Source: Podarcis liolepis
Taxonomy: Eukaryota
Assembly: GCA_965112155.1 (NCBI GenBank)
Contig: OZ218099.1
DNA length: 64,000 nucleotides
Strand: one strand, 5' to 3'
Shown here: positions 1 to 25,700 of the stretch, piece by piece
Layout of the letters: every line of letters starts with the position of its first letter
Position numbering within the stretch: position 1 is the stretch's first letter
The notes under the pieces: generated by a model
Database searches by the model: none
What the model was told of the DNA's origin: nothing
The model's input: only the letters and a program-made list of their open reading frames with translations
Program-made: the position numbers and the translations under genes

Positions 1-99
1 GAGGCTGCGAGTTAGCCAACCCTTTTGTTGCATTTTGCCACATCCACATGAATGTCGGCCACCACTTGGGGTCATCAGAATCCACCAGTCCCAACACAG

Positions 100-1100
100 G
101 CCCCCCCCATCTGCTTCAGACGTCCAGCGATCCTTGAGGGAGGTTCCAAGGCAGCGTGAGAGGAGTTGGAAATGGCAACTCTCCAGTGGGTAGTTCCCGG
201 CCTGGGCCCGTCTCGGGCTGCTCTTCCTCGCTTCGCGTGGGCCGTCGGGGCGGATTCCTCTCGCTCGGTGCTTGGCTGGGCGGCGGCGCCCTGCGCGAGG
301 TTCCCTCCCTTCCCCAAGCCAGCTCAAGGGAATGGGCAGGGAGGCGGGAGCGCCGGGCGCCTGGGGAGGGACGGGCCCGGCACTGGAGGAGGACGCCACT
401 TGCACCGGCCGACACCGCCGCCGGCGCCGGAGAAGCCAGCAAGGGCCGCTGCCTCCTAGCGCAGGTGGCCACAAGGAAGCCGGCTCAGGTGCTTCCGGGC
501 GGCCGGGGCAGCCAGCGAGAGCCTACAAACTCCAGGCAAGCGGCTGCGGGGAACCGTCGGTGAGTGTGCGCGTCTTTACGCAGGCCGGGACGTCGGTTTT
601 AGGGAGAGGCGGGATCGACCCATAAAGGGACCGAAGCGTGTCCCATTCACTTCCTCGAAAGTGTGGCCGCGGAGGGGGACTATAGATCCGGCCAGAGCCG
701 GCGTGTTTACCTGGAAGGATCCCCACATGGCTCCTCGTGGAACTTCCTAGGCAGCGCGCTTACGGCGGGCGGCCCACCCTGACTTTGCCGCTAGAGGTAT
801 TCCCCCCCCCCCCCCACCTTGGGAGCAAGAAAGCGAGCATGTAGCCTTACCTCGGCCCGGCCCGTTCCCAGAATGTGGATGAGGTCCCGACGAGGTGATG
901 CCCGAGCCTAGACCCCCGACAGCAACGGGAGCCTGGCACGCGCACCGACGGTGCCTGGAGATGCTGTGCATGTATGGCTACCCTGTGAGCGCGCGTTTTG
1001 CCCTCGGGTAAACTGTGGGGGCAAGATTAGCAGGCGGTGGGGTCTCCCCTTTGTCCGATGGAGTGGGAAAGTGCGGAGGAGGCGCTAGCGGGATCTGCTC
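100..1100. promoter_or_regulatory. CpG island / promoter region of LRRC8E
   Basis: Very GC- and CpG-rich compared with the flanks. Contains a consensus splice donor (TCG|GTGAGT, intron starting at 560) upstream of the LRRC8E coding exons. Boundaries approximate. Confidence 0.75.
430..559 (+). other. LRRC8E: Putative non-coding exon 1 of LRRC8E (5' end uncertain)
   Basis: Donor GTGAGT at 560-565 inside the CpG island. The first coding exon has an acceptor only 5 nt before its ATG, so an upstream non-coding exon is required. Confidence 0.55.
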
Positions 1101-7589: not shown

Positions 7590-7727
7590 ATGATCCCGGT
7601 GGCCGAATTCAAGCAGTTCACAGACCAGCAGCCTGCTTTCAAGGTTCTCAAGCCATGGTGGGATGTGTTGGCCGAGTACATCACCATAGCCATGCTGATG
7701 ATAGGAGTTTTTGGCTGCACTTTGCAG
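7590..7727 (+). CDS. LRRC8E: LRRC8E coding exon 1 (46 codons, [10 protein letters not shown]...GCTLQ)
   Basis: Acceptor ttttggcag ending at 7584, ATG at 7590, donor CAG|GTGAGT at 7728. The N-terminus [30 protein letters not shown] matches LRRC8E. Confidence 0.95.
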
Positions 7728-8909
7728 GTGAGTGCGTATGGGGGGAGCCCACGCAGTGCCTAGATGCCGCCATGGTGTCATAGAATCAGAGGGTTGTAGA
7801 GTTGGAAAGGACCCTCGCAATGCAGGCGTCGCAGCTAGAGCATCCGTGAAAGATGGCCATCCAACGTCTGCTTGAAAACCTCCAAGGAAGGAGAATTGGA
7901 ATCATTGGAATCTTGGGGTGATGTTCCACTGCCCATGGGAGAAGAGGCTCTAAATGTTTGGGGGCAGTCTGGGCAAGGGTGGAAATGACCCTAGCACAGA
8001 AATGGTCAACTTCTACAGCCTGGGGGGTTGGATTCTCTGCAGCCCACCACTTGTAAGGGGTGGCGGCCTAGCACTGTGCAGCCTCAGTAATGTAGGCAGG
8101 GAGGCTCTGTTCTCCAAACGTTGAAGACCGACTTCTCTCCTACATGGCAGAGATGAGAGATTGAGTATTGAGTTTACTGTATTCATGCAGCCTTAGTACA
8201 GAGAAGAAGGTATGGGAGCCACAACTTTTAAGATTCTACCCCATGTTACAGAAAGGGCATGAAGTATTAGGTGATATATACCAAAGCAGGCCGGGGAAGG
8301 ACCTCTGTGCCATGACTTCACCTTCTCTTGCCAATGCTTTATCATAACATTCCTCAGATCCAAAGAAGCCTACAGAGCATTAGATCCTTGGGAAGGAAAG
8401 ATAAGACATGTCTCATATAACCCCTCATTCTGTAATCAGTATGGAAAACGCAGCCCTATAGCTGACACAGCATAGAAAATGCATGCAGACGAGTTATTAG
8501 CAGATTTATACAGGGGCAGATTTCCCCTTGGTCCCTTTAGTATTAAGACTAGATTATCAGTTCATTTAAATTAGCTCCATTTTGACTACACATGAAGCAG
8601 TATTAGATATTAGACTTTGTCATTTCAGACTACAGTTGGGGGAGGATCCTTTTTTAATAACACGTAGAACAAAAACTCCTTAAAAGTGAAACCAGCACAT
8701 CAGAAAGAGCTGTTCTAGACCAGCCCACTCCTTGCTATGCTAGTTTTCTACCTGCAGGGACTTTTTTAAAAACATATGAAGAGGTACAGTCCATTCAGCC
8801 ACTTCAAGGCTTTCCTTGTTCATCCCCACCTGATATAAACTGTTGCGTTCTACCACCAGCCTGTTTTCTATCATGTTCCTCTCTTCTCTTTCCTAACCTG
8901 ATGTGACAG

Positions 8910-11162
8910 GTGACACAAGATAAGATTATCTGCCTTCCCAACCATGTGCCTGATGGCACAACCTTCACTGGTGCATCTTGTGAAGATTTCACGAAGAAGA
9001 GAGCCAATGCCTCTGAGCCAATAGGACCCTCCGCCAACCAGCGAATGAATGGATTGAAGAACAACCTAGACCTCCAACAGTACAGCTACATCAATCAGAT
9101 GTGCTATGAGACGGCCCTCCATTGGTATGCCAAATACTTCCCATACCTCGTGGTCATCCACACCCTCATCTTCATGGCGTGCACCTCGTTCTGGTTCAAG
9201 TTTCCTGGGACCAGTTCCAAGATTGAGCATTTTATCTCCATCCTGAGCAAGTGCTTTGACTCGCCCTGGACTACTCGAGCCATCTCTGAAGTCTCTGGGG
9301 ATAACCAGGAAAATGCATTCTTAGAGAAGGGGTACCGGAGGAGGAAAAGCAGTGCTCCCAGCGAGACAGCTGAGCTCAATCCCCCCGGGGGATCGGTGTC
9401 AGAAAAGAAGGTTTCAGAGTCCTCCCCGGTTAGCCTATTGGACAAAAAGGAAGGGGAGCAGGCCAAGGCTCTCTTTGAAAAGGTGAAGAAGTTCCGGCTC
9501 CACGTTGAAAAAGGAGACATCCTTTACACCATGTATATCCGCCAAACCGTTCTCAAAGTCTTCAAGTTTCTCGTCATCATTGTCTACAATGCAGCCTTGG
9601 TTTCCAATATCAGCTTCATTGTGCCATGCACTGTCAGGATGGAGGATATGACGGGCTATGACCATTTCTGCTGCAACCACACCAAAGCCCACCTCTTCTC
9701 CAAACTGGCCATCTGCTACATCTGCTTCCTTGGCATATATGGCATGACGTGTCTCTACACCCTCTACTGGCTGTTTCACCGGCCGCTGAAAGAGTACTCC
9801 TTTCAATTTGCACGCAACGAGACAGGCATCAGCGACATTCCTGACGTCAAGAACGACTTTGCTTTCATGCTCCACCTCATTGACCAGTATGATTCCCTCT
9901 ACTCCAAGCGCTTTGCTGTCTTCCTTTCCGAGGTCAGCGAGTTCAGACTCAAGCAGATCAACCTCAGTCATGAGTGGACGGTGGACAAACTGCGGCAGAA
10001 GCTGCAAACCAACGCCCAAGGCCGGCTGGAGCTCCATCTCTTCATGCTACCAGGGTTGCCTGACACCACCTTTGAGCTGAATGAGCTGCAGTCCCTGAAG
10101 CTGGAGCTCCTCAAAGATGTGACATTCCCACCCTCAGTGACTCAGCTGGCCCAGCTCCAGGAGCTCACACTGATCAACTCTCCCGTCAAGCTCTCTTTCA
10201 CCTCTCTTATGTTCTTCCGTGAGCAGCTGAAGGTAATGACTGTGAAGTTTGATGACATCAAAGATATACCACTATGGACCTACAACTTGAGAGGCTTGGA
10301 AGAGCTGCACATCTCAGGACTTTTCAGTCTAGAGATGGGCCGGGCAGGGACTCTGGAGAACCTGCGTGAGCTGAGGAATCTAAAGACCTTGACTCTGCAC
10401 AGCAACATCTCAAAACTGCCACCTAGCGTGTCTGACGTTGCCGCCCATCTGCAGAAGCTCAGGATCTACAATGATGGGACTAAGCTAGTGACCCTCAACA
10501 ATCTCAAGAAGCTCTTCTCTGTGCAAGAAGTGGCGCTGATAAACTGCAACCTGGAACGCATCCCCCATGCTGTCTTCAGCCTGGTGAACATGCAGCAGTT
10601 GGACCTCAAGGATAACCAGCTGCAGTCCATTGCAGAGATCATCAGCTTCCAGCATTGCCGCAAGCTGGTGTGCCTCAAACTTTGGCACAACCACATTTCC
10701 AGCATTCCTGAACACTTCCGCAAGCTCAAGACCCTAGAGCAGCTTGACCTCAGCCATAACCGCATTGAGGTCCTCCCTTCCCAACTATTCCAGTGTTCTA
10801 GGCTGCACACTTTGGACCTTTCCTATAACAATATCCAGGTCATTCCCCCTGGGATGGGAGTCCTGCAGAGCCTTCAGCATTTTGCCATTTCTCACAACTC
10901 CTTAGAGGCACTGCCAAATGAAATCTTCTTCTGCAAGCAGCTCCGGGTTCTCAAAGTGGGACACAACAAACTGCATCGCCTCTCTGACCGCGTGAGTTGG
11001 CTGCCTTTGCTCTCCACGCTAGACTTGAGAGGAAACCCCCTTCAGGCCCTTCCCTTGGAGATTGGCCAGTGCCCAGTGCTCAAACGGAGTGGCCTGCTGG
11101 TGGAGAGCAGCCTTTATGAGGCGTTGCCTTTGGAAATTAGGGAGAAAATGGAGGATCAGTGA
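8910..11162 (+). CDS. LRRC8E: LRRC8E coding exon 2 (pore domain remainder plus LRR domain); spliced protein 796 aa, volume-regulated anion channel subunit
   Basis: Acceptor gtgacag at 8903-8909, phase 0. Motifs [66 protein letters not shown], an LRR array and C-terminal REKMEDQ. Position just upstream of MAP2K7, as in mammals. Confidence 0.95.
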
Positions 11163-12675
11163 TGAGGAGAATGATAAAGGGGACAGGGGTGTCCTCTCAT
11201 TTGTTGGCCCCTTTGAGTCCAAGCATGGACTGAATGGGGGAGCTGGCTGGAGTTCTATCTTCGGCTGGAACCAAGGAGGGAATGGGAACTTTTCACCCTA
11301 ATAAGGGAGCAAAGGAATTGAAAAGACACAATAAAGAGCAAAAGTAGAAAGTGACTTTTAAAAAAATAACCCTGTTTTCTGAATGGATAAGACCACAGGA
11401 ATTGTCCATTGGGGCGGAGGCGGAAGCACAGCTACACCTGACCAAATCATCATTATAGCTATTTTTGTACATGTGTTGTGTACTGGTGTATCTTTGTGAA
11501 ATGCCCTGGGGCTTTGCGGGATTGTTTTGTTCAAAACTCCTATCTCTGTTCCCTTCTCCTCATCAATGTGTTCAGCTCGCAGGCCTGTAGCTTACAAAGC
11601 CCATCTTTTGAGCTTATTAGAAAACTTTCTTTTCTGCAGTTTCAAATGCCTATATATCATGGGGTGGGGAATCAGGGACAGGCAACTCTTCAACAGGGAA
11701 ATAGCCTAATTCCTTTTACTTCTTTGTTCCAAGAAGGGCTGTGTTCCTTAGCACTGGACGGCCAGAGCACAATGCCTTCACATACCACTGACTGTAAGGA
11801 ATCTTCTGATGTTTGTGTGTGTCTGTGTACATATGCATGTATACCTTAATCCCTTCTGGTTTCTGTTTTTGTCACATTCTAATCAGGGTGACATTAGTTT
11901 ATCAGTTCTTCTTGAGTGCTAGAGCTGAACTTTCTGGCTGTTCAGATCTCTTCCCTCTTCAGGCTAGGAGAGCCTAGCACCTCAGATCCTCTTCAGAACT
12001 CACTTCCTCTCTCATTACCTTCTCACGTAATTTCAGTGAGCACCACACATGGAAGAGAGGAGGAATCCTGCACTGTGAAAACCCATCCTCACTACCACTC
12101 ATGAAAAGCCACCTCATTTCGCCCTGGAGCCTTTAATCAGTTCTCCACATATTCCAATCCCAGCATAGGTTGAAGTCGCTTTCTCACTCCTCCTATAAGC
12201 ACAGACATTCTTTCTACCCATTTTCTGTAATCAAGGTAGGTAAGTGCCTTTTGCTTAGCACATGAAGGGAGATGTGGGACTCCCCCCCCCCCCAATGCTG
12301 CCTTTGGTTCAAGTTGGCTGAGCTGATTTCCCAGGTGGCTTGGGCTTGCTTCTGTTTCATCCCTTTGGGTCTCAGCTCTCTTATGGCCTCTTGAGACGCA
12401 AGCAGACTCTTCTGGGCCTGCCATAACCTGGCCTTCTCTTCCTGCTTTATCTGATTGCAGAGCACTTTGGGGCATGTAAAAGCCATTGGAAAAGAGACCC
12501 TGCTTCCTCAGTGGCAAAGCAACTCAAAGCTGGTCTCAGAATCCTACCTGTTGGCAGCAGACTGCTTCATATCCAGTTAAAGTATGTTTAGAAAAAGTTT
12601 ATTAAAAATAAGAGAGAGCTGAAATGCATGGCATTAAGAAACAATAGTGCACACTTTTAGCAGATGCTGTGCTAG

Positions 12676-12726
12676 CTCTCTCTCTCTCCCTCTCTCTCTC
12701 TGTGTGTGTGTGTGTGTGTGTGTGTG
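12676..12726. repeat. Compound (CT)n(GT)n microsatellite
   Basis: Directly visible. Confidence 0.9.
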
Positions 12727-13552
12727 CGCACATGTAATGTTCCTAACCCCCCACTTGTCTTTGCTCATAGAGTTGCTTTGTCCTTAGAAACCTCACAATC
12801 TGGTCCGAAATAGTTTAGTTCATATGTCTTCTGCCAGATTCAATACACAGAGGTGGTTGGATAATGATTTCACCTTCCATTTGTTGAGAACTAGTTGCTT
12901 GAGGGAACTTGCACAATAAGGGAGAGGTTGCAGTAGTCCCTGGTAATTATTGTTTTGGTTAATGAAGTCCTAAATTCAGAGCCTGCTGAACAACGAAGGC
13001 TGAAGTCCTGTGCACACATAACGGGAATAAATCCCACTTGCACTTGAGTCAGCATTCATAAGACCCAATAGAAAGGTGGCAAGGAGACAGCCATATCTAT
13101 TTGCACTCTTGCCAGCAGTCCTTGGGACTCAGCTGCTGAGCCTTGGTTTTGACAGGAGCAAGCTGTGCCCTACACTGGGGCAACCAGGCAACCAGCCAGC
13201 CAATGCTTCATACCTGGGAATGGCACAATAGGCCTCATTCCTCATGCCCTGGTGGTTGTTGGAGGAGGAGGAGGAGATGGGTGGGAATGTGAAGCAATGG
13301 GTGGGAAGGAGAACCTGCTATGTGACTCACTGGGAGAAACCAACCAACATAGCTGCATTTTGGGAGTGCTTCTGAGGCCATAAAATTGGAAGAGGCTGTT
13401 CTGCAGCAAGGTTGTAAAACAGGCCTATTGTGCAGGAACATGCTTTAGTAGCATGAATAACACTGTGGTGGGTGGCCTGGTGTTTACATGAGCATGCACC
13501 AAAGTAATTATTTGGCAGTTCACACTTTTGTTTTCCTGGCAAAATGCATTTA

Positions 13553-13770
13553 CAGTGGTACCTCAGGTTAAGAACTTAATTCGTTTCGGAGGTCCGTTCT
13601 TAACCTGAAATTGTTCTTAACCTGAAGCACCACTTTAGCTAATGGGGCCTCCCGCTGCCGCCGTGCCACGATTTCTGTTCTCAACCTGAAGCAAAGTTCT
13701 TAACTCAAGGTACTATTTCTGGGGTAGCGGAGTCTGTAACCTGAAGCGTTTTTAACCTGAGGTACCACTG
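13553..13770. mobile_element. Tc1/mariner (pogo/Tigger-like) MITE, 218 bp
   Basis: TIRs cagtggtacctcaggttaa / ttaacctgaggtaccactg flanked by TA on both sides. Inverted relative to the copy at 19518-19743. Confidence 0.85.
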
Positions 13771-13890
13771 TACTTAAAAGACTTAAATAACATTGAGGGG
13801 CGGGTAGAAGAAATGCCAGCAGAATTAAAACAGATGTAAAACATTGTAAAAGGCCAGAGTCAATGTAAGAGATCTTCAGTTAATTGGGTA

Positions 13891-14058
13891 GGAGGCGTAA
13901 CTTAGTGGTAAAGCACATGCAAAAGGCCACCTCAGTCTCCAGGTGAAGGATAACAGGCGATAGCTAATATTCACCTACTTGAGCCGCTGCTCAGAGTAAA
14001 CATTACTGAGCTAGATGGACCAAGAGCCCTACCTGGTATAAGGTAGAATCCTATGTTC
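13891..14058 (+). mobile_element. Degenerate tRNA-derived SINE
   Basis: tRNA-like head (gtaacttagtggtaaagcacatg) and 3' part ctgagctagatggaccaa...cctatgttcc. Similar to 21390-21572. Confidence 0.5.
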
Positions 14059-14424
14059 CCATGTACTTGGTACTAAAAGGATATAAAGTGCCAGCTGGGC
14101 TTCCTGGAGAGGACATTCCATAAATGCGGTGCCACCACTGAAAGGTCCCTTTCTCTGATCGCCCCCCCCCCCCCGTCTAACCTAAATAGGTTGAAACACT
14201 TAGAGATGGGCCTCGGAAGATGACCTATGCATTTGAGCAGAGACCACGAGGCTACAATCCTAACCCCAGCACCTGGGAGTAAGCCAGGCAAGCGAGAAGC
14301 ACAGTTCAAGGCCACATTCCAACGAGACACCTGAGGGCCAATGAAGGGTGTGGCCTCAGGAGGAGGCGTGGCCTAGGGAGAGGTGTGAAGGGCCTGCATC
14401 TCTCCCTCCCTGCCCAGGTCTGAA

Positions 14425-14682
14425 GTTCCCCCGGGGAGGTTCAACTGGTGCCTTCATTATACACCTTTAGATGCCAAGCAAAAATGTTCCTCTTCAACCA
14501 GACCTTGGGCTGATTGACATCTTATACCCCTTTAAAAATTGTGTGTGGGAGGGGGTGAGCGGGGTTATTGGTTTGTGGGTTTTTTTGTTCTTGTTTTTAT
14601 CATGTGCTTTTATATTGTATTTTTAGGTTGTGAACTGCCCTGAGATATGTGGGCAAAGGACAGTATACAAATGTAATAAATT
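14425..14682 (+). mobile_element. LINE (L2-like) 3' end fragment
   Basis: Same family as 2658-3290 in the opposite orientation. Ends ttgtgaactgccctgag...gtatacaaatgtaataaat. Confidence 0.5.
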
Positions 14683-16453
14683 ATCGTCTAAGCAGTACAC
14701 CACCTTAGGTTTCAGGCAAGGAGTTTGGGAAAACACTGCACTGCACCACAGAGGAGTCTGTCAGAAATAGTTGGGATTGTCACTATGTACATCCACTGCC
14801 TTTGATATGGGCAATGACTGAAAGGGTCCAGACATGATGGATTAGATGTCGGGCTGGATCATTTGCTCCAGTAGCTACTTATGCCAGTATTGGATACCCG
14901 ACAGATTTATATTCTCTCTTCGATCAGAGACCTTCAACTGGTGGATTGGGGACTCACTACCAGGTTGCCTGATCTAAGGTGGGTCACAACAGCAGCACTA
15001 CCACCATACAAATGTATGGAATGAATGAATGAATAGGTCCCCAAATACTTGTTTGGATTACATAGGGGTCCTGTGTATGAAACCGCAGAAGATTGTTGCA
15101 GTTTAAACATTTATGTGCTGTGTCACTAGGTTCATTGGCTGTGTGTTGGAGCCTAATGCCACCTAGTGGTTAAAATTATTCAAGCACCTCAAAGAACAAT
15201 CATAAAATGCACTTTTATTTGTGGTGGGTGTTCAAACTCTACTAGACAAGGCTTTTCAGGTATAAGGCAAAATAGCCGATTCTTCAAACCCCACTGAAGA
15301 CTCAGCCTATGCACCACTGTGATTTGCTCTCCTATGTGATCAATTAGCTGCAGACTTCCTTTTGGAAGGGAAGGTTATACATTTTTAAAGGGAATAAATA
15401 AATAGGTGGCCACTTTCTATTCCTAATATGGAATTAAGCCTCCTTACCAGTCTTCACAGCATACAGATTTCTGGGATCACAACCAACCACATTGTTCAGC
15501 TGAGTCAGGTCTTACAAGACTGTATGTGGATAGAGTGGGTGATTATGTTCCTGTATTGCACAAGTGAAAAATAATGCAACTTTAAGGAGAGATTTCGCAA
15601 AACTGAATCAAGGAATACAGTACATAAAACCTTGACCAAAATATATTGCATCTGTGCCAACTCTGACCACACATCAGAAAGGGCGGGACCTACTAGCTGA
15701 TACATGCAAAAGACATGAGTCAGTCAGGTTTCAGGTCTTGTTATGGGACCTAGAGAAGCTGAGGGAGCTGAGAAAGAACAAGTGGGTGGTCCAAAACAGG
15801 GACAGTAGCTTAGGGTGCAGGCATCACAACAGAGAAGAGTCCCTCAGACTGGGGCTAAGGCTTTATTGGGCCTAGTGGACAGGGATTGGCCTTTGAGGGT
15901 CACATGACTGAATGCTCAGGTAGACCAGTATTACATGTAGTTGAAGCAGAGTTCAGCCTGCCAAACAAGCAGTTAAAGCAGAGTCCTGGTGCTGCAGAGA
16001 TTAAGACACCAGTCTGCTGGGAGTCCTGGTTTGTGCATACACAGTGGGTGCCATGTAACAGGCCTCTGCCTCCAGGGAGCTTGCAGTCTACAAGAGCCAG
16101 TATGCTGTGATGGCTATCATGTTGGTATTATACCAGGATCTTCAAACTGACCTGTATCAACTTGCGCGCCCTTCCCTTTCTCCTGTGTGGCTAGAATTTC
16201 CATGTGCGTCACATTCTTCAAAGTTTCAATTAGTCCTTGATTCATTCTGAAAATCTTTTAGCCTCGTTATTTCAAAGTTGTGTAATGCAGGAACAGATTT
16301 CTTGCTCAAGCCACTCCACCCATCCCTGATGACCTTATGGCTGTTATTATCAGCCTTCCCTACCTCACAGGGTTGTTATGAAGAGCAAATGAAGGCAGGG
16401 AACTGTTTTGTGGGTGAGGAGTTCTCTAGTGGTTTAGTGGTCTTAGCTTAGCC

Positions 16454-16511
16454 CCTTCCTTCCTTCCTTCCTTCCTTCCTTCCTTCCTTCCTTCCTTCCT
16501 TCCTTCCTTCC
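16454..16511. repeat. (CCTT)n microsatellite
   Basis: Directly visible. Confidence 0.9.
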
Positions 16512-18989
16512 CCCCTCTCTCACATTTTTGCACTGTGAGTTACAGAAGACAGAATAAGAAGTGTGAGTGTGGGAGTTTGTCACAACTGGTAGCAATCCCT
16601 TTGCAAGCAAATGAATTCCGAGCAACGAGTTTTGCTTCCCTCCTCCTTCCTCCAGTCCTTTCGTCCTGCCTGGAGCTGCCATGGAAACGGAATAAAGCCT
16701 CTTGCACTGAGTACAGTGTGGTGTGCAGGCTTAACGCACAAGCAAAAGAGAGGGTCTGGGAGAGAAAGATCCTTGCAGACGGGAGAGAAAAGAGCAGAGG
16801 TTGTGCATGAAGAGTTCTAGAACCGCCTGCAGGTGAGGAATTGATGCCAAATAGGATAAGGAAGTCAGAGAGAGGCAGAAGGTTGGCATGTAACCCACAG
16901 CCAGTGTTATAACCACAGCTAAAAAAATGCTTGTGTCTATGCATGCTAAAACCACCCTTCTAAATGATATTTAAGGACAGCCTGCTGCAGATCTAGCAAC
17001 AGTGAAGTGGTTCTGTTTCAAGGCTAAGTGTCTGGGAGTGCATGTTTTGTTGGTGGATGTTTTAGGGTGCCCCCAAACTGTTGATATTTTGTGGGAGGAA
17101 TACACACACATACTGGAACTTTAGGTTTGCACAATTAAAGTGGATTGCATCCCTCTGTCATCCTAGTGTCACAAATCCACTTTAAATAAACAACATTGGA
17201 CTTTTCGCAGTTTGAAAAGCGATGGGGAAATGCATTCAAAAGTGTGGGATGAGTGAATTATTATTATTATTATTTATTAAATTTGTATAACACCCTATTC
17301 TTGCAGGTCTAAGGGTGGTTCAATGACACGTAAACACGCTGCATGCAAATAAGGGTAAATGTAAGATAAATACTCTTTGTCATATAACTACCCCATAAAC
17401 AAATCAGAACAAACGCTCAATGAAGATCAGACATTGACCAACTATTGTGTAAGCTTATCAGGATCATAGCTGTCAACGTTTCCCTTTTTTTAAGGGAAAT
17501 TCCCTTATTCCGAATAGGATTCCTCGCAAGAAAAGGGAAAAGTTGACAGCTATGATCAGGATGAATGTTGAATAAACAGGTTGTCTGGAGGAACCCCGAG
17601 TATCGTGAACAAACAACAACATTTTCAGCAGCAACAGCCAAAAGGAATTGGAATCTAAAGCAACAGCTGCTTTCAGAGACACCAGGATTAGATCCTCTCA
17701 CAAACAACTTTTAGCACAAATGTGCAAATCACTTATTGGTATCTCTGCTTTTCAACTTCAGGTAACAGGAATTCTCCCATCTACTCAGAGTAAGATATCA
17801 TTAAGCCTAGGCCATTTCCCACTTGCCTGATCCACTGTAGGACGTGGAAAACAAAGATGGGGAAATGGAAAGTTGCCTAAACGCCACAGAGTAAACCACC
17901 CTCTGTACAGCCTTAAGGCATTTTTCCATCTTTCCGCTTTCCACAAAGCGAAGTCTGGTTACAGGATCTAAGGAGAAACTGTGAGTAAGGAAGTGTTGTT
18001 GCTATTTATGACTTGGAGAGCATCTCGGCAGATGGCTATATGAATTATATTCTTAGAATTTTTTAAAAAAACACACGTATTGAATCTTTTTCAAGCCACT
18101 CCATCTCATTGCAATTATTCTTATTATTCAGTTAGGTATTTATATCCTGCTCTTCTGCGCCAAAAGCATAATCAAGACAGCATGCAGGATAAAATAATAA
18201 CAAAAACAAACTAAAATGCAATGTTAAAAACAATAACAAGGAAGCCACAATAGCAGTAAAAAAAGCAGGGTTATTTTTAAAAAAATTAAGTGTCCATAGG
18301 TCAGGGGTGGGAAACCTGTGGCTCTCCAGATGTTGTTGCAGACTCCTCAGTGGCAAGGGTTGATAGGAGCTTGAGGACTCATCTACATTAGTACGGAAAA
18401 GGTGTTTTATATATGTTATAACACTGTGACACCAGATAGCACTGTGGAATTCCGTTTTTAGCCAACATGCTTTCCCACTATGTTGTTTACAACACGTTTT
18501 CCTGAAACACTTTTTTAATGTATCTAGATCCAGCCTAAGACCAGTGACAACTGGAGGGCTACAAGTCCCTCCCTGCCCTAGATTATTATTTTTTTTTTTA
18601 CATTTGGAATGGCAGTTGCCAACTCAGCATCCACAGATGCCCTGCTCCCACATTGGTGCCCCTGGCTGGGGGAGGACAAATTATGAGCTTTCATCTTTTT
18701 CTTTTTTAAAAAAAGTAAGGCTCTAGCCTTCCAGGAAAGTTATGAAGCAAAACATACAGGTACCCTTCTAAGTGATTTCTGCAAGATGGGGGCTACTGCC
18801 TGTCAATGCTTTTAACCAACGGATGAAGCTGTGATTGATAAATGTGTTGTTTAGACACCAGGCATTAGGAATCCCTGGGATCCTAAAGAGCTACTGTTTC
18901 CCCCTGTCCTTTAGCGCACTTTTCCTGTTTCTGTCTGTCTTATTTATAGTCTTTGGATTCTCTTTAGTTTCCCCTTCTTTTCCCCATAG

Positions 18990-19045
18990 CAGCCAGGATG
19001 CATCTTCCCTAAGGTCTCTTAGTGTTTACTGGGGCTTATTCACAG
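18990..19045 (+). other. Putative 56-nt 5' non-coding exon of the LRRC8D-like gene
   Basis: Long pyrimidine tract (~18900-18986) ending ccccatag, and a perfect donor CAG|GTAAGT at 19046. Confidence 0.55.
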
Positions 19046-19517
19046 GTAAGTGGGTGCAGGATGACAGCCTAGACTTTGGTTTATGGTTGACACTCAGGAA
19101 ACAGGAGGTTTTTGTGTCTTTGGCAGCTGTATGGCAGGCAGAAACTCAACAGGTTAAGGCAAGCCTTTCCTAGTATGGAAAGCCTCGCCATAACTGTACT
19201 GTCTCTAAGTTTGGGTTATGCCTGACCACTTTGTTAATCAATGACGGCGCTATCAATAGTGCCACACAATGCCCGCTGTACCAGGAGAGGAGCATTCAGT
19301 GTGGCAGCATCAAAACGATGGAACTCCCTCCCAATGTGCATTATGCAAGCGCCTTCTGTTTTATAATTTCAAACACATTTCTGTTTAACCAAGCCTTCCT
19401 TGAAGCGTGACCAGTTCTGTATTTTAGTCATTTATCTCTGAACAGTTTTAATGTTTAACTTTTTATATTGTTCCGTGTAACTTTGTATTGCTCACAGTTT
19501 AGGTATATATATATATA

Positions 19518-19743
19518 CAGTGGTACCTCGGGTTACATACGCTTCAGGTTACAGACTCCACTAACCCAGAAATAGTGCTTCAGGTTAAGAACTTTGCTTC
19601 AGGATAAGAACAGAAATCGTGCTCCGGTGGCACGGCAGCAGCAGGAGGCCCCATTAGCTAAAGTGGTGCTTCAGGTTAAGAACAGTTTCAGGTTAAGAAC
19701 GGACCTCTGGAACGAATTAAGTACTTAACCCGAGGTACCGCTG
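19518..19743. mobile_element. Tc1/mariner (pogo/Tigger-like) MITE, 226 bp
   Basis: TIRs cagtggtacctcgggtta / taacccgaggtaccgctg, sitting in a TA repeat. The interior is the reverse complement of 13553-13770. Confidence 0.85.
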
Positions 19744-19883
19744 TATGTATATGTGTGATGTATATGTGTGCGTGTATATATATATATATATATAAATCAC
19801 TAGCTAAATGTGCTAAACAGACTTTGTTTCAGTGCAATAGCCAAGGATGTTACTCAATTCCCACTTACCATTTGCTTCTAGTG

Positions 19884-21047
19884 ATGTTTAACCTGACAGA
19901 AGTGACCTTCCTCGGTGACGCCCACGCTCGGTTCCAGACTCTAAAGCCTTGGTGGGATGTCCTGATGGACTACTTGGTAGTAGCGATGCTGATGGTCTCT
20001 CTCCTCTCAGGTACTCTGCTGATTTCTGTTGACCATATGACCTGCTTGCCTCTGAATTACAAGCTAAATGAGACCACAGCAGCTATGCTCAAGCCTGGAG
20101 CTATGAACAGTGCCACCAGTGAAGAGTTTTCTGCTGAGAACAGTGGACGCCCAATCAATCTTGACTACCAGCAGTACCTGTACATAAACCATGTCTGCTA
20201 TCAGAATGCTTTGCCTTGGTTCTCCAAGTATTTTCCTTACCTAGCACTTGTCAACTCACTGATTTTAATGGCAAGCAGCAACTTCTGGTTCAGGTACCCT
20301 AAGACGTCCTCAAAGATCGAACACTTCTTATCCATCCTCATGAAATGCTTCGAGTCACCTTGGACCATCAAGGCTGTCTCTGAAATGGTCTACCAGAATT
20401 TCCTAGACCTACCCCAAACCACGGATACTAGAGGATGTCAAGAACAATTTATTTCCCCTTCATCCTCTCCTATCCTTGACTGGAAGGAGAGGGAGCAGGG
20501 CCGGGCACTCTTTGAGAAGATCTGCAGATTCAGGGCACATGCTGAAGGTGCTAGCTTGATTTATATGGTCTACATGGGACAATCAATCTTCAGAGTTGCC
20601 AAGATCCTAACTGTGCTGGGCTACACCTCAAACTGCATAGGAGCCATCTCCTTTGAACATGTTTGCTGGCTGGACACAGAGAACCTGACCGGCTACTCTG
20701 TTTTCCTCTGTAACCACAGCTTGGCTTTCATTCTGCAGAAGTTGATGGTGACCTACCTGTTCTTGGTATTCCTCTATGGGGTGCTGGGGGCTTACCCACT
20801 GTGGTGGCTGCTGTGGCAGCCGCTGCAGAAGTATTCCTTTAAGCAAATGCGAAAAGACAGTCACTTTCTTGGCATCCCAGATGTCTACAACGACTTTGCT
20901 TTCCTCCTGCACATGGCTGATCAGTGCGACCAGCTATACTCCTGGTGGTTTGCCATCTTCCTCTCAGCCATGAGCAAGAGCTCTTTGCTGGATGTGGGCC
21001 TTGAACACAAGGCAAGTATTGAAGGGCTGCAGCTGCATGTGCATTGA
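19884..21047 (+). CDS. LRRC8D-like protein truncated before the LRR domain (387 aa; pannexin-like four-TM pore domain only)
   Basis: Acceptor tttgcttctag at 19871-19881, then ATG at 19884. Motifs [95 protein letters not shown] are D-type rather than C/E-type. There is no intron after TM1, as in LRRC8B/D. Whether it is functional or a pseudogene is unresolved. Confidence 0.8.
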   Translation: MFNLTEVTFLGDAHARFQTLKPWWDVLMDYLVVAMLMVSLLSGTLLISVDHMTCLPLNYKLNETTAAMLKPGAMNSATSEEFSAENSGRPINLDYQQYLYINHVCYQNALPWFSKYFPYLALVNSLILMASSNFWFRYPKTSSKIEHFLSILMKCFESPWTIKAVSEMVYQNFLDLPQTTDTRGCQEQFISPSSSPILDWKEREQGRALFEKICRFRAHAEGASLIYMVYMGQSIFRVAKILTVLGYTSNCIGAISFEHVCWLDTENLTGYSVFLCNHSLAFILQKLMVTYLFLVFLYGVLGAYPLWWLLWQPLQKYSFKQMRKDSHFLGIPDVYNDFAFLLHMADQCDQLYSWWFAIFLSAMSKSSLLDVGLEHKASIEGLQLHVH

Positions 21048-21320
21048 GACTCAAGGGCATCAGAGAACTAAGGCTTCACAAGCTGCCAGGCTACCTAGGG
21101 CCCTCTTCTGTGAAATGGAAGTCCTGAAGCTTGCAAACAGTCCCAGACTAAAGCACCCAGAAAAATAGGTATACTAACCTTTCTCAATCCTCGCTGGTCA
21201 AGATGGGCCCCACTGACCTAGGAAGGCCCACAGTATTCCACATCACATTTCCTGACATTACAACCTGGGGTTGTCTCTCTCAGGGGTCTCCACCAGTATC
21301 TCTCTAGCAACTTTGGCAAG
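21048..21320 (+). pseudogene. Decayed remnant of the first LRRs of the LRRC8D-like gene
   Basis: Fragments in alternating frames: RELRLHKLPG, LPRALFCEMEVLKL, KAPRKIGILTFL, VFHITFPDITTW, VVSLRGLHQYLSSNF. They are collinear with LRRC8E in this window ([27 protein letters not shown], ...[29 protein letters not shown]). Confidence 0.7.
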
Positions 21321-21666: not shown

Positions 21667-21672
21667 AATAAA
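21667..21672 (+). terminator. Candidate poly(A) signal for the LRRC8D-like gene
   Basis: First AATAAA seen downstream of the stop codon at 21047. Confidence 0.3.
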
Positions 21673-22254
21673 AACAACAGGTACCTGCATTGCCTGTGAA
21701 CTTTCCTCCCTGGGGTTAATAACAGTGCTCTCTCTCTCTCTCTGTGTGTGTGTGTATGTTGGGGGGGAGGGATCAAGGAATTGGTACCAATAATTGGAAA
21801 ACTTCAATAGAAACCAAAGCCTCTTCTGTATTTCTGCTTAAAACAGCAACAACAACAACAAATAATACACTGACCTGGGAATAAGTCCAATAGGGACATA
21901 CTTTTGAGTAAATATGCATAGGATTTCTGTAGCATTTATTACATCTGTTTTAGCCCTGAGATATTAACAGAGAAGCAGATTTGAGCTGGCATGATTTCCC
22001 TGAGCTATGCTGAAAGTAAACACACGAGCACATACAAATTAATGTATAAAACTAACATTTTCTCCAAATGATCTTTTCAATGTTTGTTTGTTTGTAAAAA
22101 AAGAATTGCAGGACTCTACAGTTTCAGTTTAAGAGTGTAAGGAGTTGTAGGTAGTGAAGTGATCCACTTTCTGAAACCAAAGGAGAATATTAGTCATATG
22201 ATGGCACAATGGGCCATCAGTGTGCCTGGCTGTTAACCAGAAGGTTGGGACGGC

Positions 22255-24859: not shown

Positions 24860-25700
24860 CCCCTCCGACCCCGTCATGACTCCCGGACATGCTCCCTAGT
24901 CCCCATCAAAGCTGAGTGGAGATGCACGAATAGGGAACGTCCGAAATATCATTGACGGCCAGGCGGTGCGGATACTGAGCTCGGGCAGCGCTTTGGTGCC
25001 CTCGCGCATGCGCGAGCAAGGAAAAGCCGCGAGGCAAAACAAGCACAGCGGGCAAAAGCGGAGCCGTGTCTTTGCGGTGGGCGGAGGAGGAGGATGATAA
25101 TATGGTGGCCTGGTTGGTCCTTTCGGCGCGTGCGCACTGCGGTGTTTGTGTATTCTGGCTGCGCGGTGGCGGCAGCGTCGGCGGCTCCGGGGGAGGGGGG
25201 GAAGATGGCGGCGTCCTCGCTGGAGCAGAAACTGTCCCGCTTGGAGGCCAAGCTGAAGCAGGAGAACAGGGAGGCCCGGAGGCGCATCGACCTCAACTTG
25301 GACATCAGTCCGGCCCGGACTCGGCCTAGTAAGGGAGGCTTTGAGGGGGAAACGGGGGCGGCGGCGGCGGCAGGGGAGGCTCCGCGGCAGGCCCCCCCCC
25401 CTTGGGCGACTGACACGGGCCCGCCTGGGCAGGAGCCCCGGGGCCGGAGGGATGCGGGGCGGGGATGGGAAGAGCCGAGCTGCCCCGGAGAGGGGCCGGT
25501 AGGGAAAGGTCCTCCCGGAGAAGCGAAGGGGTCGAGAAACCCGGGGCGGGGAAACAAGGGGGCTCTTGTTTACTACGGAGCCTGGGGGAGGCGGAGGCCC
25601 AAGGCACACCGGGGCAGGGAGAAAGAAGAGCGAGGGGAAAGGTAAAGAATCCCGTGGGGAAGGGACTTGGAGGAAGGCGTGGGCGTGGGGGGCGGGGAAG
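24860..25700. promoter_or_regulatory. CpG island / MAP2K7 promoter with NRF1-like and YY1-like motifs
   Basis: CpG-rich. Palindrome CTCGCGCATGCGCGAG at 25001-25016 and GCGCGTGCGCA at 25126-25136 match the NRF1 consensus. AAGATGGCGGC at 25202-25212 matches the YY1 consensus and overlaps the start codon. Confidence 0.75.
25205..25328 (+). CDS. MAP2K7: MAP2K7 exon 1
   Basis: MAASSLEQKLSRLEAKLKQENREARRRIDLNLDISPARTRP; 124 nt, donor gtaagg at 25329. Confidence 0.95.

What the first reader, a model, noticed from the sequence alone, without database searches (positions are those of the whole stretch)
7590..21047. LRRC8E plus D-type tandem pair looks like a surviving whole-genome-duplication ohnolog of LRRC8D (a sixth LRRC8 lineage)
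Seen in sequence: a C/E-type gene with an intron after codon 46 is followed on the same strand by a D-type gene with an intronless CDS (MFNLTEV..WWDVLMDYL, FWFRYPKT, CFESPWT). The two are too divergent to be a recent local duplicate. Established knowledge: mammals have five LRRC8 genes. LRRC8B-C-D form a tandem cluster near EVI5/TGFBR3, whereas LRRC8E lies alone next to MAP2K7 near EVI5L/TGFBR3L. Inference: the E then D-like order mirrors C then D, so this gene may be the paralogon copy of LRRC8D that was lost in the human lineage rather than a retrocopy.
Basis: partly seen in the sequence, partly recalled or inferred. Interest (0 to 1): 0.7.

Follow-up and report, generated by a model that had tools for sequence, protein, structure and literature searches.

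The report
Lizard LRRC8 channel subunit without LRRs
This lizard gene is a sixth member of the cell-swelling (VRAC/LRRC8) channel family, an ancient sister of LRRC8D that is full-length in sharks, amphibians and most turtles but is kept in lizards and snakes as a pore-only protein, which likely still joins and retunes the channel.

Summary
Confirmed and extended. The gene at 19884-21047 is neither LRRC8D nor a recent copy. It falls in its own clade ('F', 99/95 support) running from chimaera to lizards, sister to LRRC8D; nesting in squamate D is rejected (AU p=1.6e-42). It shares a contig with an LRRC8E-type gene in 19 of 20 species checked, and shares LRRC8D's exon layout. Databases already hold it as 'LRRC8D-like' or si:ch211-106h11.1; I found no paper describing it, but could not read the key 2012 family paper. 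All 17 squamate rows aligned are LRR-less. The frame is under purifying selection (pN/pS about 0.20) and appears weakly transcribed. Hard-shelled sea turtles show a separate frameshift at the same boundary. The best mechanistic reading, untested, is a pore-only partner of LRRC8A that eases channel opening, like the human LRRC8C Leu400 frameshift; a dampening subunit is the main rival. The scan earlier noted a different, shark-retained LRRC8D sister beside LRRC8A (e1-9930740).

The parts
7590..7727 (+). LRRC8E first coding exon (46 codons)
   Evidence: same intron position as the genome's LRRC8C
8910..11162 (+). LRRC8E main coding exon (pore domain plus LRR domain; protein 796 aa)
   Evidence: E clade
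19040..19051 (+). candidate splice donor of an upstream non-coding exon of the D-like gene (unverified)
   Evidence: consensus match only
19880..19881 (+). splice-acceptor AG ending two bases before the ATG, the same spacing as in the genome's LRRC8D
   Evidence: contig of run X3 begins at 19883
19884..21047 (+). LRRC8D-sister gene ('F'): 387-aa pore-only ORF with four TM helices, four extracellular Cys and no LRR domain
21053..21150 (+). decayed, frameshifted remnant of the start of the lost LRR region, now 3' of the stop
   Evidence: weak: 6.2 and 2.1 bits, collinear, two frames
21667..21672 (+). only AATAAA/ATTAAA between 21048 and 22200; likely polyadenylation signal
   Evidence: X3 contig ends at 21705
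25205..25330 (+). MAP2K7 first coding exon (approximate end), downstream synteny marker
   Evidence: N-terminus recognised from recall; kinase exon at 48211-48390 matches MAP2K7 at E 2.5e-35

Best explanation
The gene is a genome-duplication-age sister of LRRC8D, lying next to LRRC8E, that in lizards and snakes lacks its LRR domain yet keeps an intact, selected pore domain, and it likely works as a pore-only partner of LRRC8A that would make the volume-regulated anion channel easier to open. Shown: separate pan-jawed-vertebrate clade sister to D; E-F linkage; shared exon layout with D; LRR absence in all squamate rows aligned; purifying selection. Supported but weak: transcription as one exon ending near 21700. 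Inferred: an ancestral tandem trio (A/B type, C/E type, D/F type) was copied by whole-genome duplication into today's B-C-D, E-F and A loci; the LRR was lost once in the squamate stem; the protein co-assembles with LRRC8A; slots without an LRR domain loosen the cytosolic LRR ring and lower the activation threshold, with D-like passage of larger osmolytes. My odds: ohnolog identity 0.93; functional LRR-less protein in squamates 0.85; LRRC8A partner 0.7; activating rather than dampening, given partnership, about 0.55.
For: Trees: F clade 99/95 (17 rows, chimaera to lizard, following species order), D clade 93/95, D+F 100/100, C 97/97, E 96/91; same shape with 76 and 142 rows; AU tests. Introns: A and B share an intron at codon 719/712, C and E share one after codon 46, D and F have single coding exons with the acceptor at -2. 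Synteny: 19 of 20 species share a contig length for E- and F-type proteins; RefSeq numbers are 3-4 apart in coelacanth and bichir; E+F fused models in Crotalus and Microcaecilia. Paralogon: BET domains about 1.1-1.3 Mb from the A, D and E/F loci; HR1 near B and near E; ZP domain 56 kb after F and 0.9 Mb after D. Truncation: 17 of 17 squamate rows end at LRRC8A-equivalent 411-466; no full-length squamate F among the 120 listed longer hits. Selection: 11 synonymous against 8 nonsynonymous differences to run X3, pN/pS 0.20, Fisher p=6e-4; column conservation tracks the rest of the family (rho 0.52); E6, W24 and the four extracellular Cys are kept in every row covering them; simulated neutral decay to 73% identity left the frame open in 1 of 400 runs. 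Fold: pLDDT 72.5, best match the D chain of LRRC8A:D, 9dx7_E. RNA: X3 contig 19883-21705 matches the predicted exon; all X23 depth in the CDS lies in one read orientation. Analogy: human LRRC8C p.Leu400IlefsTer8 lacks the LRR domain, still co-purifies with LRRC8A and gives constitutive current (PMC11729881, section 9 read). LRRC8A L402 substitutions activate the channel (PMC13586329, passages); that position is Leu in only 8 of 17 squamate F rows against 14 of 14 full-length F.
Against: No functional or binding data exist for this protein. In the same paper LRRC8C cut at residue 419 assembled but gave compromised channels; the lacertid stop falls at about A421/C419 and lacertids keep Leu at the 402 position, which favours the dampening rival for this species. 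Expression is low: 11 reads in 12.8 million records of X23 and none in the CDS in X21; X2 and X3 are only guessed to be RNA, contigs cannot prove ends, and no splice joint was seen. F evolves faster than its paralogs (71-86% identity across squamates against 82-91% for E and 89-94% for D). Two squamate-type records look broken (P0135, tegu fragment P0323), and no colubrid or elapid F appeared among listed hits. Synteny outside this genome rests on contig lengths, accession numbers and fused models, not on genome reading. The lamprey D-type row is unstable (outside D and F, inside D), so which duplication round split D from F is not settled. Cortexin, a recalled human neighbour, was not found near the locus.
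Confidence: 0.55

Rival explanations
1. Same ancestry and truncation, but the pore-only subunit dampens VRAC: it assembles with LRRC8A and yields channels that open poorly, acting as a natural dominant-negative or tissue-specific brake.
For: LRRC8C cut at 419 assembles but gives little current or swelling response (PMC11729881 section 9); the lacertid stop is at the equivalent place and others lie 411-466. Fixed squamate changes Y382C (17 of 17) and K388W (16 of 17) could stabilise a closed state.
Against: Conservation among squamates collapses after about A398 and the 402 position varies (Pro in 3 of 17), which resembles the activating human frameshift more than the native-sequence 419 cut.
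Confidence: 0.25
2. The LRR-less protein works without LRRC8A, as a homomeric pannexin-like large-pore channel or in an intracellular compartment.
For: LRRC8 pore domains can be expressed and oligomerise on their own (PMC11729881, passages); the whole pore domain is conserved.
Against: Non-A subunits need LRRC8A for functional channels (PMC11729881, introduction passage); nothing here points to an acquired independence.
Confidence: 0.08
3. The squamate copy is a slowly decaying pseudogene whose pore-coding frame survives by chance or through overlap with some other constrained element.
For: LRR loss, faster evolution, low expression, two broken-looking records, and two Arg-to-Trp differences in this genome at sites where relatives have Arg.
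Against: pN/pS 0.20 (p=6e-4); open frames in rows from at least ten squamate lineages; family-like conservation pattern; neutral simulation 1 of 400; exon-shaped contig.
Confidence: 0.08
4. The gene is a recent squamate duplicate or retrocopy of LRRC8D, or a tandem copy of LRRC8E.
For: Single coding exon; best PDB match is LRRC8D.
Against: LRRC8D is itself single-exon and shares the -2 acceptor; AU tests reject both placements; orthologs from sharks to turtles are linked to E.
Confidence: 0.01

Closest known systems
LRRC8D (VRAC subunit; PDB 6m04, 9dx7, 9t5m)
   Same: Sister clade; single coding exon with acceptor at -2; same pore fold; aromatic residue at the LRRC8A R103 filter position; downstream of a C/E-type gene.
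   Different: Separate locus and clade since before the shark-bony fish split; faster evolving; in squamates no LRR domain; squamate-specific Y382C and K388W.
Database entries 'LRRC8D-like' / Si:ch211-106h11.1 (coelacanth H3AZN8, elephant shark A0A4W3JWI4, reedfish A0A8C4XFN4)
   Same: These are the orthologs, so the lineage is known to automated annotation.
   Different: They are full-length (780-945 aa). I found no paper on the lineage or on the LRR-less squamate form in the library searched.
Human LRRC8C p.Leu400IlefsTer8 and engineered LRRC8C-t419 (PMC11729881)
   Same: Pore domain kept and LRR domain lost at the same boundary.
   Different: Those are a de novo disease allele and a construct of the C subunit; here the state is fixed and conserved across squamates, in a D-type subunit.
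Pannexins (recalled as the LRR-less relatives of the LRRC8 pore)
   Same: Four-TM large-pore architecture without an LRR domain.
   Different: This is a secondary loss within LRRC8; the sequence is plainly LRRC8D-type, and independent channel function is untested.

Membership tests
LRRC8 (VRAC subunits) | Pannexin-like four-TM pore domain (PF12534) | tested here: met
   E 6e-109; model matches LRRC8 chains, TM-score of the best match 0.86 by target length
LRRC8 (VRAC subunits) | Conserved extracellular cysteines and N-terminal E6/W24 | tested here: met
   C54, C113, C295, C310, E6 and W24 equivalents in every squamate row that covers them
LRRC8 (VRAC subunits) | C-terminal leucine-rich-repeat domain | tested here: not met
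   Absent in this gene and in 17 of 17 squamate rows; present in turtle, amphibian, fish and shark orthologs. Member by descent, atypical by architecture.
LRRC8 (VRAC subunits) | Co-assembly with LRRC8A into a swelling-activated anion channel | not testable with these tools
   Needs pull-down and electrophysiology
LRRC8D orthologs | Nests in the D clade and lies in the B-C-D cluster | tested here: not met
   True D lies on contig C6 after B and C; AU p=1.6e-42 against nesting with squamate D
Whole-genome-duplication ohnolog pair with LRRC8D | Split predates the shark-bony fish divergence | tested here: met
   Both clades hold cartilaginous and bony vertebrates
Whole-genome-duplication ohnolog pair with LRRC8D | Loci lie in paralogous blocks with other duplicated families | tested here: met
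   C/E pair plus BET, HR1 and ZP-domain genes near both loci; cortexin not found nearby
Whole-genome-duplication ohnolog pair with LRRC8D | Timing relative to jawless vertebrates (which round) | tested here: inconclusive
   One long-branch lamprey row, placed differently
Processed retrocopy | Loss of parental introns, recent nesting in the parent clade | tested here: not met
   Acceptor at -2 shared with D; ancient separate clade

The most novel reading that the evidence does not exclude
Squamates have for their whole history carried a dedicated LRR-less VRAC subunit: evolution fixed the same pore-only architecture that causes constitutive channel opening and disease in humans, retuned the intracellular subdomain (Y382C, K388W, relaxed L402), and uses it to set basal osmolyte and anion leak; hard-shelled sea turtles are repeating the change independently.
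Probability: 0.35. Interest if true: 0.8.

Novelty: new variant of a known kind. Interest (0 to 1): 0.62.

Why it matters
How the LRR domains gate VRAC is an open question (PMC13586329, abstract and passages). A naturally selected LRR-less subunit, with full-length orthologs in turtles and amphibians as matched controls and a range of natural tail lengths, makes the question directly testable and may explain why some human truncations activate while others silence. It also completes the family's history: the A/B and C/E pairing was proposed before (Abascal and Zardoya 2012, as cited in PMC6994961), and D/F is the third pair.

Tried and rejected
Complex prediction of LRRC8A pore domain with F: no verdict (score 0.02, alignments not used); not used either way. 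First structure model from 26 sequences was poor (pLDDT 50) and was replaced by the 126-sequence model. No RNA holder was on record in the run search. Expression of LRRC8E and of any upstream exon of F was not examined with reads. A spliced downstream LRR exon was sought by tblastn with 7 full-length proteins and by an HMM: none found. Cortexin as a paralogon marker: 6 matches, none near the three loci. Teleost lrrc8da/db as the F lineage: rejected, both fall inside D. Shark F being the earlier-noted gene beside LRRC8A: unlikely, since a third shark D-type lineage (P0303) lies outside D+F. Literature: 'LRRC8F' 0 papers; LRRC8+zebrafish+106h11 0; searches listed nothing on this lineage. Abascal and Zardoya 2012 and one review were not held, so prior description there cannot be excluded. 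No supplements were read. Earlier scan findings by sequence and by place: none.
Full report
Observation. The window holds, on the + strand, a two-exon LRRC8 gene (7590-7727 and 8910-11162; 796 aa), a second LRRC8 ORF without introns (19884-21047; 387 aa) and then MAP2K7 from 25205. The second ORF's best solved relative is LRRC8D; it is 40% identical to its neighbour over the pore domain. The closest listed proteins are from lacertid lizards. The genome has six LRRC8 loci: three in a row on C6 (71.80, 71.85 and 71.95 Mb), one on C21 and the two in the window on C2. Translation identifies them as B, C, D, A, and E plus the extra gene, which I call F.

Ancestry. Homology searches gave 880 longer hits (120 listed) and 44 near-length hits. 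An IQ-TREE pore-domain tree of 42 chosen rows (LG+G4, no mixture model) puts F in a 17-row clade (99/95) that runs chimaera and sharks, coelacanth, bichir and sturgeon, lungfish, amphibians, turtles, squamates. That clade is sister to D (93/95); C and E split the same way. FastTree runs on 76 and 142 rows agree. A 63-row run adds gar, bowfin and perch to F. On 26 rows the AU test rejects squamate F with squamate D (p=1.6e-42) and with lizard E (p=9e-5). The tool warned that the turtle and squamate long branches meet, so their exact sisterhood is less sure than the F clade. The single lamprey row is unstable.

Gene structure gives independent support. A and B share an intron at codon 719/712, C and E share one after codon 46, and D and F have one coding exon with an acceptor AG ending two bases before the ATG. 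An A/B and C/E pairing was already proposed by Abascal and Zardoya 2012, as cited in PMC6994961 (passages seen).

Synteny. E-type status was tree-tested for about half of these and taken from source names for the rest. In bichir, C pairs with D on one contig and E with F on another. Fused gene models read E then F in Crotalus horridus and Microcaecilia. In this genome BET domains lie about 1.1-1.3 Mb from the A, D and E/F loci (3 of 4 matches). HR1 domains lie near B and near E but none was listed on C21. ZP domains lie 56 kb past F and 0.9 Mb past D (2 of 35 matches). Cortexin gave nothing nearby. Gene names for these neighbours (BRD3/4/T, PKN1/2, TGFBR3/3L) are recalled. Sources already label the orthologs 'LRRC8D-like' or Si:ch211-106h11.1. 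No mammal, bird or crocodilian F appeared among listed hits, which is not proof of absence.

The truncation. F ends 27 residues after the LRRC8A-394 equivalent. Pfam finds only the pannexin-like domain. A weak two-frame remnant follows the stop at 21053-21150, and no other LRR-coding DNA was found. All 17 squamate rows aligned (15 database proteins, the F part of the Crotalus fusion and this gene; P0135 was left out as broken; some rows are near-duplicates) end at A-equivalent 411-466 with unrelated tails. They cover lacertids, an amphisbaenian, agamids, an anguid, iguanians, a cordylid, geckos, skinks, a varanid (partial), a python and vipers. Turtle, amphibian, lungfish, coelacanth and shark orthologs are full-length. 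One loss in the squamate stem is the simplest reading (inference).

Is it functional? The 39 differences between the window and the contig of run X3 split into 19 in the CDS and 20 in the 658 bases after it. Of the 19, 11 are synonymous and 8 are not: pN/pS 0.20, p=6e-4. Squamate columns are 97% conserved where the rest of the family is invariant and 75% where it is variable (rho 0.52, 366 columns). The extracellular cysteines, E6 and W24 are kept. Neutral substitution to 73-81% protein identity left the frame open in 1-8 of 400 simulations. The model folds like an LRRC8 pore (pLDDT 72.5; best match the D chain of 9dx7). In reads, the X3 contig spans 19883-21705, from one base after the predicted exon start (19882) to 33 bases after the only polyadenylation signal; X23 gave 11 reads, with all CDS depth in one orientation; X21 gave none in the CDS. 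X2 and X3 are only guessed to be RNA and no splice joint was seen. Against function: faster evolution than D and E, low expression, and two broken-looking records (P0135, P0323).

Mechanism (inferred). Non-A subunits act through heteromers with LRRC8A. In PMC11729881 (passages and section 9 read), LRRC8C frameshifted at Leu400 lacks the LRR domain, co-purifies with A and gives constitutive current; a cut at 379 is not expressed, and a cut at 419 assembles but gives compromised channels. In PMC13586329 (passages), changes at LRRC8A L402 activate. In squamate F, conservation ends near A398; position 402 is Leu in 8 of 17 rows (14 of 14 in full-length F); and two fixed changes mark the intracellular subdomain, Y382C (17 of 17) and K388W (16 of 17). 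I therefore favour an activating, pore-only partner of LRRC8A. The lacertid stop sits at the 419-equivalent with Leu402 intact, so a braking subunit is a close second. The filter position (A R103) is Tyr, as in this lizard's D, which suggests D-like osmolyte passage (inference).

Wider picture. Hard-shelled sea turtles (Caretta, Eretmochelys, Natator, Lepidochelys, and by its flagged or gapped models Chelonia) have 430-459-aa products or 'LOW QUALITY' models that leave frame at the same boundary, while Dermochelys is intact. This is either convergence or early decay. An earlier scan note (e1-9930740) described shark D-type genes beside LRRC8A; my tree shows a third shark D-type lineage outside D+F (P0303), consistent with that note and distinct from F, though I did not check its neighbours.

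Novelty and verdict. Ten literature searches listed no description of this lineage or of an LRR-less vertebrate LRRC8; the founding family paper was unavailable, so the full-length lineage may have been noted there. The ohnolog reading is supported. The conserved LRR-less squamate form is a new variant of a known kind. Interest 0.62.

Noticed in passing
proteins P0136, P0464, P0465, P0467, P0471-P0473, P0010, P0012: Hard-shelled sea turtle F leaves frame at the pore/LRR boundary (430-459 aa products; RefSeq 'LOW QUALITY'), while leatherback P0014 is intact: a possible independent LRR loss.
   Followed up: partly
protein P0303 cluster (Chiloscyllium, Rhincodon, Stegostoma, Hemiscyllium): A third D-type lineage in sharks, outside D+F; Chiloscyllium punctatum has both this and F.
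   Followed up: partly
window 20814 and 20946: This genome has Trp at F codons 311 and 355 where run X3 has Arg; codon 355 aligns with an Arg conserved across the family. Possibly private variants.
   Followed up: partly
proteins P0284, P0286, P0289 (Podarcis isoform X2): A 336-aa predicted isoform starts at Met52 and lacks the N-terminus and TM1.
   Followed up: no
proteins P0135 and P0323: A gecko-like Logan record and a tegu fragment leave frame inside the pore domain; F may be lost in some squamates. No colubrid or elapid F was listed.
   Followed up: no
window 1-560: GC-rich island ending in a splice-donor-like GTGAGT at about 560; likely the LRRC8E promoter and first exon.
   Followed up: no
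protein P0178: A turtle LRRC8E-like protein is named 'histone-lysine N-methyltransferase EHMT2' by its source, an apparent misannotation.
   Followed up: no
proteins P0186, P0184, P0224, P0227, P0239: Bichir, lungfish and shark proteins named 'LRRC8C-like' fall in the LRRC8E clade.
   Followed up: yes
proteins P0326, P0330, P0333, P0339, P0343, P0353, P0360, P0370, P0371: Unnamed, divergent LRRC8-pore-like proteins (25-31% identity, several under 420 aa) form an outgroup to all vertebrate subunits.
   Followed up: no
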